DNA from: Simonsiella muelleri ATCC 29453
Lineage (GTDB): Bacteria; Pseudomonadota; Gammaproteobacteria; Burkholderiales; Neisseriaceae
Length of the DNA stretch: 32,000 nt
Assembly (NCBI RefSeq): GCF_002951835.1
Contig: NZ_CP019448.1
Coordinates: 707,293-739,292 of the forward strand
Direction of reading: 5' to 3'
This document shows positions 18,832 through 20,300 of this stretch, one piece after another. A model generated the notes under the pieces. The model did not search any database. It saw nothing but the letters and a program-made list of their open reading frames with translations, and was not told where the DNA came from. A program made the position numbers and the translations under genes. Every line of letters begins with the position of its first letter. The first letter of the stretch is position 1.

Positions 18832-19179
18832 TACTGTAATAAATGTCAAGTGAAAAATCAAAATAAATTATTGGCAAAACCCATTTCGCAACATTTGTTT
18901 GTTTAATCATCAGTCCTTTTAGTTATCACATCATTCAGGGTGAATGCTAAACGTTAAACAAAATTAAAAAAGCGCGTCAAGGTTAAAGTGAACGCAAGCG
19001 ACCTTGACGCGCTTTTTTAATTTCGTTCAACTACGCATACCCCCTGAACGATGCGATAACGGACTGATGATTAAACAAACAAACATTGCTACATTAGCTA
19101 TTTATTAAAATAATGTGGCATCGAGCCACATTATTTTAAACCCCCATCTCTTCTGCTCCTACGTCCTGATGACGTTTAA
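18832..19179 (-). other. Structured non-coding module 'E' (copy 1) 3' of the transposase
   Basis: A hairpin at 19109-19135 abuts the stop codon. A ~190-nt imperfect long hairpin spans 18894-19083. Its apex is a perfect 18-bp stem (18966-18983 with 19001-19018). The module ends at the TACT junction. Confidence 0.7.
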
Positions 19180-20128
19180 CATCAAAGTATGTATTGTTCT
19201 TCAAGCAAGTATAAGCATATTTGACTAATTTAACCATCATCAATACATAAACTTGCTTAGGGTGCTTTCCGCGCGCTAAATGCGCTTCAAACCAAGAACG
19301 CCACAACTTACTTCGAGTACAAGCCGCGCGGGCGGGCATATAAAGAGCCTTACGAATAGGACGGTTACCCATCTTAGAAATTGTAGATAAACCTTTCTTA
19401 TTCCCTGAATCACGAATAATAGGAGACAAGCCAAGCCAACTAACTAAATGGCGATATGTTGGAAATTTGTCCAGATCAATCATAACACTTAATAGAATTT
19501 GCGCTGTTGTTTTACCAATACCAACAATACTTTGTAAAATCTTTTGCTTCCTCATCAACTGCTCACTTTTATTAATCAAATCTTGCATTTCTTGCCTACA
19601 CAATTCAATTTGTTTAGACAAGAAATCAATCATTTGATTAATTGAGTGTAAAGCTACAGAATCGGCAACACTTAAACGATTTTTTTCCATTATCTGCATT
19701 TCTAAAAGCTGCTCAATTCGTCTATGCAAACTTTTCAATTTAACTTGCTCAACACTTTCGGGCTGCCATTTTTCAGGATTCTCTTTCGCGCAAAATTCAG
19801 CAATTAATTTTGCGTCTTGCTTGTCTGTTTTGACACGCTTCAATTTAAATTGCGCGTAGGATTTAATAATTGAAGGATTTACGACGCTCACTAACGCGCC
19901 ATTTTCAAATAAGAATTTTGAAACTGGCAAATAATAAACATTCGTTGCTTCACTGCAAACATGAATTGTATTCAATCCAATTTTATACTTTGCAAATTGT
20001 GTCAATAAATTATTAAAACCATTTGAATTGTTATCAATAATAAAATTAATTGCTTCATTGTTAATCAATAAACAACAATCAATTTTATTCTTACTAATGT
20101 CTAAACCTAAATGCGCTTTAATTTCCAT
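19136..20128 (-). CDS. IS110-family (DEDD, Piv/PivNM/Irg-like) transposase/recombinase
   Basis: 330 aa. N-terminal LGLDISKNKID...VCSEATNVYY...VSVVNP...KTDKQDA gives the DEDD motifs. C-terminal IVGIGKTTAQILL...GLSPIIRDSGNKKG...ISKMGNRPIRKALYM is the Transposase_20 domain. Confidence 0.9.
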   Translation of the reverse strand: MEIKAHLGLDISKNKIDCCLLINNEAINFIIDNNSNGFNNLLTQFAKYKIGLNTIHVCSEATNVYYLPVSKFLFENGALVSVVNPSIIKSYAQFKLKRVKTDKQDAKLIAEFCAKENPEKWQPESVEQVKLKSLHRRIEQLLEMQIMEKNRLSVADSVALHSINQMIDFLSKQIELCRQEMQDLINKSEQLMRKQKILQSIVGIGKTTAQILLSVMIDLDKFPTYRHLVSWLGLSPIIRDSGNKKGLSTISKMGNRPIRKALYMPARAACTRSKLWRSWFEAHLARGKHPKQVYVLMMVKLVKYAYTCLKNNTYFDVKRHQDVGAEEMGV

Positions 20129-20300
20129 TTCAAACCTTACAAATAAGGGCTTTATCCCAAGATACCGTTATGATTAAAATAAAAAATGTATGTGCCAATC
20201 TATCATAATAATTTTAAATTAAGGCAGCAAATATGCAGGCATCACACATTTAAACACTTTAACATAGTATAATTATTAATTTTCTTATTTAGGACTAAAC

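What the first reader, a model, noticed from the sequence alone, without database searches (positions are those of the whole stretch)
18836..20165. A third AAGATAC site 35 bp upstream of the transposase suggests the recombinase plus module E is also an autonomous 1.33-kb IS110/IS1111-like unit
Seen:
- CCCAAGATAC|CGTTATGATT lies at 20156-20175.
- Its right half resembles the chromosomal side of the right prophage border (AAGATACTTGTTAGATT versus AAGATACCGTTATGATT).
- The interval 18836-20165 has typical IS110-family size. It has a very short 5' non-coding end and a long structured 3' end, the layout described for the IS1111 subgroup.

Two models follow:
- (A) An IS110-type element inserted into one att copy of a phage flanked by AGATAC(Y)GTTA(K)GATT repeats.
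- (B) The whole phage is the transposing unit, and 20159 is a relic or internal site.

A random 7-mer match in this ~40-bp interval is unlikely, so the site probably has meaning.
Basis: inference. Interest (0 to 1): 0.7.

Follow-up and report, generated by a model that had tools for sequence, protein, structure and literature searches.

The report
Bridge-RNA guide inside a filamentous prophage
The "third AAGATAC site" is not the end of a nested insertion sequence: it is the DNA that encodes one guide segment of an IS621-type bridge RNA, which an 8.2-kb filamentous prophage uses with its own recombinase to insert itself next to a DNA-uptake sequence.

Summary
The motif exists as described: AAGATAC at 20159-20165, and GTATCT starts 37 nt before the recombinase ATG.

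- **Recombinase.** The 330-aa protein (19136-20128, minus strand) is a full-length homologue of the IS621 bridge recombinase.
- **Bridge RNA.** The 123 nt upstream (20129-20251) align column for column with the characterised IS621 bridge RNA. 19 of 20 predicted pairs show compensatory changes. A covariance model finds the same RNA directly upstream of the gene in 46 of 54 independent viral contigs.
- **The motif.** It is the left-donor guide (ACGGUAUCU), which copies the phage right end ACAGTAT|CT.
- **The border.** It is the same guide in a second, paralogous donor-binding loop near the left end.
- **Empty site.** Metagenome contigs give TTTTTCAGGCTGCC|CT|ATTATGAAT. This sets the prophage at 18831-27046, with a CT core on each side.
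- **Module E.** The long 3' region is lineage-specific; relatives have 3' regions of 30-360 nt. This is not an IS1111 layout.
- **Copies.** All four identical copies in the source genome sit in phages. One Eikenella locus holds the recombinase plus right end alone, but it lacks the RNA.

This is an IS621-type system carrying a phage as cargo. It has two unexpected features: targeting of DNA-uptake sequences and a duplicated donor loop.

The parts
18831..27046 (-). Filamentous (inovirus) prophage, 8216 bp. Order in recombinase orientation: LE, DBL2, Rep, ssDNA-binding-like ORF, coat B, TspB-like, DUF2523, Zot, TonB_C (opposite strand), bridge RNA, recombinase, module E, RE.
   Evidence: Pfam hits. 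The empty site in L045 and further contigs fixes both ends. Ends located.
18829..18830 (-). CT core at the right junction (attR): ACAGTAT|CT|ATTATGAAT.
   Evidence: CT is the only sequence shared by the empty site and both junctions.
27047..27048 (-). CT core at the left junction (attL): CAGGCTGCC|CT|TATATATT. The chromosomal side is the reverse complement of a DNA-uptake-sequence-like 12-mer in the bipA terminator.
   Evidence: DUS dialect sequences from PMC7371117.
18831..18852 (-). Right end (RE): -35-like TTGACA (18844-18849), then left-donor sequence ACAGTAT (18831-18837).
   Evidence: TTGAC(A)-N9-12-AC(A/G)GTAT|CT ends all close relatives, with variants in Suttonella (TTGCG) and L010 (TTGACT). 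IS621 ends CATAACAGTAT|CT.
18838..19135 (-). 3' non-coding region, 'module E': a hairpin directly after the stop codon, then a ~210-nt near-perfect hairpin (18883-19094) with an inner terminator-like stem. Lineage-specific insert, not a guide RNA.
   Evidence: Fold -148.8 kcal/mol, z = -18. No homologue in relatives, whose 3' regions are 30-360 nt. No guide-like matches to the target.
19136..20128 (-). Bridge recombinase, 330 aa (DEDD RuvC-like domain plus Tnp domain with the SG motif).
   Evidence: PF01548 + PF02371. IS621 recombinase 8wt6, E = 9e-51 over residues 6-324; ISCro4, E = 2e-48.
20129..20251 (-). Bridge RNA gene (two internal loops).
   Evidence: Alignment with the IS621 bridge RNA. 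19/20 pairs covary. Covariance model score 106 bits, E = 2e-20.
20185..20250 (-). Target-binding loop: outer stem, LTG UUGCUGCCUU (20221-20230), inner hairpin (20209-20221), RTG UUAUGAUAG (20200-20208), handshake AU (20198-20199).
   Evidence: RTG pairs with CTATTATGA of the empty site (9 bp, 2 G.U). LTG matches GCTGCC of the site.
20160..20169 (-). THE FINDING: left-donor guide AACGGUAUCU of the donor-binding loop. It equals RE end ACAGTAT + CT, with one G.T wobble.
   Evidence: Aligns with IS621 GGACAGUAUCA. Covaries with the RE: ACGG in both in Eikenella L010, ACAG in both elsewhere.
20135..20159 (-). Donor-binding loop hairpin (20147-20159) and right-donor guide UUAUUUGUAAGG (20135-20146). 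The guide is complementary to CT+TATA of the LE and doubles as the recombinase Shine-Dalgarno.
   Evidence: Hairpin arms change compensatorily among relatives: GGGC/GCCC, GGCG/CGCC, TGTC/GACA, AAGC/GCTT. The RDG follows TGTAT instead of TATAT in L003.
27033..27046 (-). Left end (LE) start TATATATTAGAGCC. The -10-like TATATT (27039-27044) lies 17 nt from the RE TTGACA once the ends are joined.
   Evidence: TTGACA-17-TATATT in 5 phages, and an 18-nt spacer in L010. The joined form is seen in contig L070.
26969..27011 (-). Second donor-binding-loop paralogue (DBL2) in the LE: guide CUAACAAGUAUCU (26999-27011), hairpin (26984-26998), 3' side UUAUUUGAUUUAAGG (26969-26983).
   Evidence: Present in WIN, L001, L002, L003, L009, L010, L034, L070 and the Vitreoscilla loci. 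Hairpin arms covary: TTGC/GCAA, TGTC/GACA, TGAG/CTCA, TGCC/GGCA.
22315..22661 (-). Second copy of module E (92% identical), carrying the last ~44 nt of the recombinase gene. It is flanked by a 143-bp direct duplication of the TspB 3' end (22176-22318 = 22659-22801).
   Evidence: The junctions show only microhomology (AGTA, TTTAA), not a CT core.

Best explanation
The window holds an 8.2-kb filamentous prophage that moves as the cargo of an IS621-type bridge-recombination system.

The 123 nt upstream of the recombinase gene encode a bridge RNA with two internal loops:
- **Target-binding loop.** Its guides match the chromosomal site, GGCTGC(C)|CT|ATTATG, at the edge of a DNA-uptake sequence.
- **Donor-binding loop.** Its guides match the joined phage ends, ACAGTAT|CT|TATAT.

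The AAGATAC at 20159-20165 is the DNA encoding the 5' side of the donor-binding loop, the left-donor guide ACGGUAUCU. By the rules of this system, that guide must copy the right end plus the CT core. This explains why it looks like an 'att' site.

That loop lies 35-47 nt inside the left end, downstream of a promoter (TTGACA-17-TATATT) that exists only when the ends are joined.

Shown here: the sequence homology, RNA covariation, guide/site covariation, the empty site, the end-to-end junction and the copy contexts.

Inferred: that the RNA is made, that it binds the enzyme, and that it directs integration.
For: 1. **Enzyme.** Pfam PF01548 + PF02371. Full-length match to the IS621 recombinase, E = 9e-51, with the conserved SG motif aligned.
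2. **RNA.**
   - The 5' non-coding regions of the window and 11 relatives (44-60% protein identity) align with the IS621 bridge RNA. I recalled that RNA from memory and verified it at 100% in E. coli.
   - AC(A/G)GTATC, (A/T)AGATT and AAG are invariant.
   - RNAalifold finds 20 pairs, 19 with double-sided changes.
   - Model R1 hits directly upstream of the gene in held-out genome loci, for example L037 at 98 bits and N. lactamica L019 at 68 bits. It also hits in 46 of 54 IMG/VR inovirus loci.
3. **Guide rules.** They match those published for IS621 (PMC11208160).
   - The 3' side of loop 1 is the reverse complement of CT plus the right flank. Cognate pairs match 4.2 nt beyond the core on average, non-cognate pairs 1.2. 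L010 matches 8 nt and L001 6 nt.
   - The 5' side of loop 1 equals the left flank and follows the host's DUS dialect: GCTGCCT, GCAGCCT or TAGCCT.
   - The 5' side of loop 2 equals the RE end. ACGG appears in both in Eikenella.
   - The 3' side of loop 2 is the reverse complement of CT plus the LE start.
4. **Empty site.** TTTTTCAGGCTGCC|CT|ATTATGAAT is the sequence these guides predict.
5. **Same-genome copies.** Four identical copies exist, and 3 of the 4 right flanks are ATTATG.
6. **Joined ends.** Contig L070 has recombinase, RE|CT|LE and Rep in one stretch.
Against: - **No direct RNA evidence.** Nothing here shows transcription or binding. On its own the window RNA does not fold better than shuffles (z = -0.5), so the structure rests on comparison with relatives.
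- **Rfam.** No family matches the region.
- **Window left flank.** It has one extra C relative to the guide: site GCTGCC|CT against guide GCUGC-CU. Pairing needs a 1-nt shift or bulge with a U.G at the core. L009 shows the same shift.
- **Weak right-side pairing.** The window right-target guide pairs with only 4 strict Watson-Crick bp before the first G.U. The right-donor guide matches the LE by only 5-6 bp.
- **Poor left-flank matches.** Two of the four genomic copies (L065, L066) match the guide poorly on the left flank.
- **Possible DNA role.** L007 shows that the guide-encoding DNA may occasionally be used as a DNA breakpoint, so a DNA-level role is not excluded.
Confidence: 0.87

Rival explanations
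1. Reader's headline and Model A. The interval 18836-20165 (recombinase plus module E) is an autonomous IS110/IS1111-type insertion sequence. Its left end is the AAGATAC site, and it is nested in or next to an att copy of a phage that has its own att repeats.
For: - The motif shares GTATCTT with the true phage left-junction sequence, and it is preceded by AC(A/G), like the RE.
- One locus (L007, Eikenella glucosivorans) has the recombinase plus RE with no phage genes within 10 kb. Its left breakpoint falls 2-3 nt after the motif, at a DUS-type target half GGTAGC|CT.
- ISPpu9 is a precedent for modular circles with alternative ends (PMC12288879).
Against: [quoted passage not shown]
- In L003, L004, L005, L009 and L034 the motif reads GTATCA, so it has no CT core.
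- Module E is not conserved.
- The supposed phage att repeat at 26999-27014 is internal phage sequence.
- 4 of 4 copies in the source genome are in phage context, as are 52 of 54 viral loci.
- The predicted circle junction was not found in viral contigs or in the loci fetched up to that point. This search had low power.
Confidence: 0.03
2. Dual use. Besides encoding the guide, the DNA at 20160-20168 occasionally serves as a pseudo-site, because it mimics left-donor sequence plus core. Recombination with attL, or with the RE, would then delete the phage body and leave a recombinase-only remnant. This side reaction is compatible with the best explanation.
For: - L007 has target half GGTAGC|CT joined to the sequence just after the guide, an intact RE|CT on the other side, and no RNA.
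- A common E. coli IS621 allele (L052) has a 72-nt partial LE duplication that ends exactly at the LTG-encoding DNA ATCGGGC|CT. This suggests guide DNA can be hit as a target.
- L117 has RE|CT|TATATATT followed by a reverse-complemented donor loop, consistent with an inversion at guide-encoding DNA.
Against: - This rests on single examples.
- The L007 junction lacks the two T expected from a precise CT crossover.
- Ordinary illegitimate deletion cannot be excluded.
- L117 was only partly analysed.
Confidence: 0.3
3. The motif is a protein-binding operator or promoter element for the recombinase gene, and its conservation has nothing to do with RNA guides.
For: It lies 30-37 nt upstream of the ATG, where promoters and operators usually sit. 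The adjacent AAGG is the likely ribosome-binding site.
Against: - The motif co-varies with the RE end.
- It aligns with the experimentally defined IS621 guide.
- It lies in a loop flanked by covarying stems.
- Promoter-like hits in the region do not exceed chance: 10 found against 7.1 expected.
Confidence: 0.04

Closest known systems
IS621 (E. coli) bridge recombinase and bridge RNA (IS110 family, Piv/IS492/IS621 branch)
   Same: - The recombinase is homologous over its full length (E = 9e-51).
- A two-loop RNA lies 5' of the gene, with the same order of guides.
- The core (CT) is the same, and the left-donor sequence is nearly the same: ACAGTAT|CT in both.
- Both have an AU handshake after the right-target guide.
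- Both have a -35 element in the RE and a -10 element in the LE.
   Different: - The LE and the RNA are separated by about 6.8 kb of phage genes (Rep to Zot). The junction promoter therefore faces Rep, not the RNA.
- The LE carries an extra donor-binding loop (DBL2).
- The target is a DNA-uptake sequence, not a REP element.
- The element is a virus, not a 1.3-kb IS.
Neisseria Nf/MDA filamentous prophages with the PivNM/irg IS110-type transposase, integrating at dRS3 repeats (Kawai 2005; PMC7058167)
   Same: - Same gene order: Rep, coat, TspB, DUF2523, Zot, then the transposase at the end.
- CT at the crossover.
- Neisseria-type loci in this scan end AGTAGTAT|CT|CGTCATTCCC...GGGAAT, which is dRS3. 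They also give bridge RNA hits.
   Different: - Only 32-38% protein identity.
- The target here is the DUS edge followed by ATTATG, not dRS3.
- I found no statement in the searchable literature that these phages carry a bridge RNA. I cannot exclude that one exists elsewhere.
ISPpu9 modular transposition (Pseudomonas putida; PMC12288879)
   Same: It is an IS110-family element in which repeated end-like boxes allow alternative circles, and a small structured module downstream of the transposase occurs both with it and alone. Here module E occurs twice in the phage, once with a 3' fragment of the recombinase gene.
   Different: - Here the internal repeat is a guide inside the RNA gene, not a second end.
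- No module-only or recombinase-only circles or copies were found in the source genome.
- The junctions of module E copy 2 show microhomology, not core sequences.
IS1111 family with 3' seekRNA (PMC11187229)
   Same: The transposase is of the DEDD type and the same size class (330 aa). In this one lineage there is a long non-coding region 3' of the gene.
   Different: - The 3' region is not conserved (30-360 nt).
- It has no target-matching segments.
- The conserved guide RNA is 5' of the gene.
- The closest solved relatives are IS621 and ISCro4.

Membership tests
IS110-family bridge recombination system (IS621 type) | Recombinase with a DEDD RuvC-like domain plus a Tnp domain carrying the catalytic Ser (SG motif) | tested here: met
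   PF01548 (E = 9e-23) + PF02371 (E = 2e-22). The alignment to IS621 8wt6 covers residues 6-324, with GlDisK, EAT, KTDkqDA and dSG aligned.
IS110-family bridge recombination system (IS621 type) | Structured non-coding RNA with two internal loops encoded 5' of the recombinase | tested here: met
   Alignment A2 with the IS621 RNA. 19/20 pairs have compensatory changes. Covariance model hits in held-out loci. The donor-loop outer stem was not recovered in the consensus.
IS110-family bridge recombination system (IS621 type) | Loop 1 guides pair with the left-bottom and right-top strands of the target, including the core dinucleotide | tested here: met
   The empty site agrees with the guides. The cognate versus non-cognate matrix supports this, as does left-flank/DUS covariation. 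The window left flank needs a 1-nt shift.
IS110-family bridge recombination system (IS621 type) | Loop 2 guides pair with the joined RE-LE donor | tested here: met
   LDG equals the RE end + C(T) in all 12 relatives, with A/G covariation in Eikenella. RDG is the reverse complement of CT+TATAT, or of CT+TGTAT in L003. The right side pairs over only 5-8 nt.
IS110-family bridge recombination system (IS621 type) | Circular intermediate with a promoter created at the RE-LE junction | tested here: inconclusive
   TTGACA-17-TATATT is predicted in 5 phages. A contiguous RE|CT|LE junction is seen in contig L070, but it could be a tandem rather than a circle. No reads are available.
IS110-family bridge recombination system (IS621 type) | Compact element (about 1.2-1.6 kb) holding only the RNA and the recombinase | tested here: not met
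   The element is 8216 bp and carries a complete inovirus gene set.
IS1111 subgroup (seekRNA 3' of the transposase) | Conserved long 3' non-coding region that encodes the guide RNA | tested here: not met
   3' regions are 30, 30, 44, 50, 57, 98, 149, 288, 298 and 360 nt in relatives, and module E has no homologue in them. No target matches beyond chance.
IS1111 subgroup (seekRNA 3' of the transposase) | Subterminal inverted repeats at both ends of the 1.33-kb unit | tested here: not met
   The only inverted pair near the proposed ends is AT-rich and 85% matched (18891-18910 / 20170-20189). Its right arm lies outside the proposed unit. It involves module E, which relatives lack.
Inovirus prophage of the Neisseriaceae Nf type | Rep_trans initiator, coat B, TspB-like, DUF2523, Zot, and an IS110-type recombinase at one end | tested here: met
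   Pfam hits. The same order is seen in about 30 genome loci and 52 of 54 viral loci.
ISPpu9-type modular element | Alternative end boxes that yield recombinase-only and module-only copies or circles | tested here: not met
   No solo copies among the 4 identical genes in the source genome. The predicted junction is absent from the searchable data. Circles themselves cannot be tested here.

The most novel reading that the evidence does not exclude
These Neisseriaceae inoviruses are natural cargo-carrying bridge-recombinase elements with a split, partly duplicated guide system:
- A complete bridge RNA sits next to the recombinase.
- A second donor-binding loop (DBL2, window 26969-27011) sits in the left end. 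It lies immediately downstream of the promoter that forms only in the circular replicative form, and upstream of a strong hairpin that buries the Rep start codon.

DBL2 could be a stand-alone donor-loop RNA made only by the circular form. It might load the recombinase on the phage junction, or it might couple recombinase binding to Rep expression.

In addition, the left-target guide is programmed to the host's DNA-uptake-sequence dialect. The phage therefore integrates at the first two bases of a DUS.
Probability: 0.45. Interest if true: 0.72.

Novelty: new variant of a known kind. Interest (0 to 1): 0.55.

Why it matters
- **For the finding itself.** A suspicious "third att site" gets an ordinary explanation. 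In bridge-recombinase elements the guide RNA gene must contain copies of the element's own end and of its target. Att-like motifs next to the recombinase gene are therefore expected and should not be read as nested IS ends.
- **For phage biology.** The result links two bodies of work: Nf/MDA-type filamentous prophages that integrate "by their own transposase", and RNA-guided bridge recombination. It predicts that integration-site choice of these phages is set by a ~125-nt RNA and can be read from the sequence. The sites are dRS3 in Neisseria and DUS edges in Kingella, Alysiella, Eikenella and this genome.
- **For engineering.** These elements show the enzyme moving about 7 kb of natural cargo. 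The RNA gene is far from the donor junction, and there is an extra donor loop. That arrangement resembles the split-RNA designs used in the laboratory.

Tried and rejected
- **Rfam.** Gathering and E-value modes gave no relevant family over 18700-20400, only chance miRNA/snoRNA hits on the module E hairpin.
- **Megablast of the prophage against GenBank phages.** No match.
- **Module E as a 3' seekRNA or bridge RNA.** Rejected. It is a near-perfect 210-nt hairpin, it is absent from relatives, and it has no guide-like matches.
- **The GTATCT upstream of Rep as attL.** I rejected it because the supposed chromosomal flank was conserved across genera, and the empty site then settled it.
- **RE-LE junction search in viral contigs.** Two hits, both chance matches in unrelated sequence.
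- **Hypothetical IS-circle junction.** No hits.
- **Promoter/terminator scan of 18700-20400.** Not above chance.
- **blastn-short search for DBL2 in the more distant Neisseria-type phages.** Uninformative.
- **Single-sequence folding of the window RNA.** z = -0.5, so the structural claim rests on covariation only.
- **My hairpin scanner for donor-loop-like modules.** It is lenient: 29 observed against 10.7 in shuffles. I used it only to list arms.
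Full report
**1. The observation**

The sequence CCCAAGATAC|CGTTATGATT is at 20156-20175. AAGATAC occurs 8 times in the window against 2.5 expected. In the orientation of the recombinase gene (19136-20128, minus strand), the motif reads GTATCT and starts 37 nt before the ATG.

The two sites align only with a 1-nt indel.

**2. Context**

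The window holds a filamentous prophage. Its genes are:
- Rep_trans (25309-26922)
- a small ORF
- coat B
- a TspB-like protein
- DUF2523
- Zot
- a TonB_C gene on the other strand
- an IS110-family protein with PF01548 + PF02371

That last protein matches the solved IS621 bridge recombinase over its full length (E = 9e-51), and ISCro4 at E = 2e-48.

A scan of one genome per species found 43 loci with relatives. The closest reach 60% identity and come from Kingella, Alysiella, Eikenella, Suttonella, Vitreoscilla, Snodgrassella and Neisseria. Nearly all have the order Rep...Zot then recombinase on one strand.

**3. True ends of the prophage**

Exact-protein look-up of the neighbouring 148-aa gene found the source genome, CP083930.1. 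It also found metagenome contigs in which bipA is directly followed by that gene. The empty site reads TTTTTCAGGCTGCC|CT|ATTATGAATATTT.

In the window the two junctions are CAGGCTGCC|CT|TATATATTAGAGCC and TTATTACAGTAT|CT|ATTATGAAT. CT is the only shared sequence.

The prophage is therefore 18831-27046. I had first accepted that site as attL. I became suspicious because its supposed chromosomal flank (GGGGC..AATCCTGACAA) is conserved across genera.

**4. The 3' region is not the guide**

In all close relatives the element ends TTGAC(A)-N9-12-AC(A/G)GTAT|CT. The distance from the stop codon to that end is 30, 30, 44, 50, 57, 98, 149, 288, 298 or 360 nt, and module E has no homologue outside this species.

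Module E is a 210-nt near-perfect hairpin with no target-like segments. In L001, L005 and L070 a different GC-rich hairpin module occupies non-coding positions. Such inserts seem to come and go.

**5. The 5' region is a bridge RNA**

The ~125 nt upstream of the ATG are conserved in all 12 close relatives.

I recalled the 177-nt IS621 bridge RNA from memory and checked it. It is 100% identical to DNA just upstream of annotated IS621 transposase genes in E. coli.

The joint alignment has these invariant blocks:
- GCCTT-like (left-target guide)
- (A/T)AGATT (right-target guide plus handshake)
- AC(A/G)GTATC (left-donor guide)
- AAGG (end of the right-donor guide)

RNAalifold predicts the loop-1 outer stem, its inner hairpin and the loop-2 hairpin. 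Of the 20 pairs, 19 show double-sided changes.

A covariance model built from this alignment finds the RNA directly upstream of the gene in:
- loci not used to build it, including Neisseria lactamica and N. sicca
- 46 of 54 IMG/VR inovirus contigs

**6. Guides match sites**

The published rules are as follows (PMC11208160). [quoted passage not shown] Both include the core.

- **Right-target guide.** Its reverse complement gives CT plus the right flank. Matches beyond the core:

| Locus | nt matched beyond core |
|---|---|
| L010 | 8 |
| L001 | 6 |
| L004, L005, L008, L009 | 5 each |
| L034 | 4 |

  Cognate pairs average 4.2 nt and non-cognate pairs 1.2 nt. In the window, UUAUGAUAG pairs with CTATTATGA over 9 bp, two of them G.U.
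- **Left-target guide.** It equals the left flank, which is the reverse complement of the host's DNA-uptake-sequence dialect: TTCAGGCTGC|CT, TTCAGGCAGC|CT or TTCAGGTAGC|CT. The dialect sequences are in PMC7371117.
- **Left-donor guide.** It equals the right end. ACAG occurs in both in most relatives, ACGG in both in Eikenella, and in the window ACGG pairs with ACAG by a wobble.
- **Right-donor guide.** It is the reverse complement of CT plus TATAT. In L003 it follows CT plus TGTAT, where the left end also changed.

The finding's motif is therefore the left-donor guide, in the same alignment columns as IS621 GGACAGUAUCA. In L003, L004, L005, L009 and L034 the motif reads GTATCA and so has no CT to recombine at.

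**7. The other site is a second donor loop**

Starting 35-47 nt inside the left end, every close phage has AATC(C)TGACA(A)GTATCT. This is followed by a hairpin whose arms covary (TTGC/GCAA, TGTC/GACA, TGAG/CTCA, TGCC/GGCA), and then by TTATT...(A/T)AAGGCTGG.

This is a paralogue of the donor-binding loop.

It lies downstream of a promoter that exists only when the ends are joined: TTGACA-17-TATATT. It lies upstream of a strong hairpin covering the Rep start. Its function is unknown.

**8. Copies and circles**

- The source genome has four identical recombinase genes. All sit in inovirus prophages of two backbones that share an identical cassette: RNA, recombinase, module E, RE and LE-DBL2.
- Three of the four right flanks are ATTATG.
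- 52 of 54 viral loci have Zot or DUF2523 upstream.
- One metagenome contig, L070, shows recombinase, RE|CT|LE, DBL2 and Rep in one stretch. Genes upstream of its RNA are not inovirus-like, which I cannot explain.
- The junction expected from a 1.33-kb circle was not found. That search had low power.

**9. The one solo-like copy**

L007 (Eikenella glucosivorans) has the recombinase and right end but no RNA and no phage genes. Homology to the phage copies starts 2-3 nt after the guide, joined to a DUS half-site GGTAGC|CT. I read it as a remnant left when the guide-encoding DNA, which mimics right end plus core, was used as a breakpoint.

Two other cases point the same way:
- An E. coli IS621 allele has a 72-nt partial left-end duplication that ends at the LTG-encoding DNA.
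- L117 has RE|CT|TATATATT followed by a reverse-complemented donor loop.

These are single cases and were only partly analysed.

**10. Comparison and novelty**

This is an IS621-type bridge system in every tested defining feature except compactness. [quoted passage not shown] In this scan they end AGTAGTAT|CT|CGTCATTCCC..GGGAAT and also carry the RNA.

I found no paper in the searchable library stating that filamentous phages carry bridge RNAs. That is absence in one library, not proof of novelty.

The features that appear to be new are the separation of the RNA from the left end by phage cargo, the second donor loop, and DUS targeting.

**Verdict**

The nested-IS reading is not supported. The best explanation is a guide segment of a bridge RNA (confidence 0.87).

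Noticed in passing
window 26969-27011 (also L001 ~2851, L002 1456, L003 2570, L009 2616, L010 1892, L034 211, L070 ~7830): A second donor-binding-loop paralogue (guide, covarying hairpin, then ..AAGG) sits 35-47 nt inside the phage left end. It is downstream of the junction promoter and upstream of Rep. Its function is unknown.
   Followed up: partly
window 26918-26970: A strong hairpin (part of a -42.9 kcal/mol fold, z = -5.3) covers the Rep ribosome-binding region and start codon (ATG at 26920-26922). G/C runs allow alternative pairing with the stem that would close DBL2, so this could be a switch.
   Followed up: no
window 22176-22801: A second copy of module E (22315-22661, 92% identical) carries the last ~44 nt of the recombinase gene. 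It sits between TspB and DUF2523 and is flanked by a 143-bp direct duplication. The junctions show microhomology (AGTA, TTTAA), not a CT core. A third, 77% identical copy lies in a truncated phage in L066 (2690-2930).
   Followed up: partly
L063-L066 (CP083930.1, four loci): Two different inovirus backbones (Zot of 346 aa with TonB_C; Zot of 360 aa without) share a 100% identical cassette: bridge RNA, recombinase, module E, RE and LE-DBL2. The only difference is one base in the left-target guide (GCUGCC vs GCUACC). Identity begins exactly at the 5' end of the RNA.
   Followed up: partly
window 18823-18830; L064 and L066 right junctions: Three insertions have the right flank ATTATG, where the ATG is the annotated start of the next gene (148-aa membrane protein, uvrA, a 106-aa ORF). 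The phage therefore lands 3 nt before start codons and replaces whatever lay upstream.
   Followed up: no
L007 9960-11060 (Eikenella glucosivorans): The recombinase plus right end occur without bridge RNA or phage genes. The left breakpoint is DUS half-site GGTAGC|CT joined just after the guide position. CTGTC is repeated at both ends.
   Followed up: partly
L052 1760-1900 (E. coli IS621 copy; the same 249-nt span appears in hits H2-H5): A partial 72-nt duplication of the IS621 left end stops exactly at the DNA encoding the left-target guide (ATCGGGC|CT). It looks as if an IS621 had inserted into the guide-encoding DNA of a resident copy.
   Followed up: no
L070 1-6650: This contig has an intact RE|CT|LE junction, but upstream of the bridge RNA it has non-inovirus genes (DUF4376, AAA/GNAT, formyltransferase). 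It also has a GC-rich hairpin module like the one in the 3' regions of L001 and L005. The arrangement is unexplained.
   Followed up: partly
L117 1190-1330: RE|CT|TATATATT is followed by a reverse-complemented donor loop and bridge RNA. This is probably the 'inverted transposase' arrangement described for some gonococcal Nf4 prophages. It may have arisen by inversion at the DNA encoding the right-donor guide.
   Followed up: partly
window 20301-20741 (+): A TonB C-terminal domain gene (146 aa) lies on the opposite strand between Zot and the bridge RNA. It is probably a phage moron. It is also present in L034 and some viral contigs.
   Followed up: no
window 23452-23680: A 12-nt tandem repeat (ACTACCAGAACC, about 15 copies) lies inside the TspB-like gene and encodes a short Ser/Gly-rich peptide repeat.
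   Followed up: no
window 10929-11293 (-) and 14144-15145 (-): An RNase P RNA gene (Rfam RF00010, 294 bits) and an IS5-like DDE transposase gene lie in the chromosomal part of the window. Both are unrelated to the finding.
   Followed up: no
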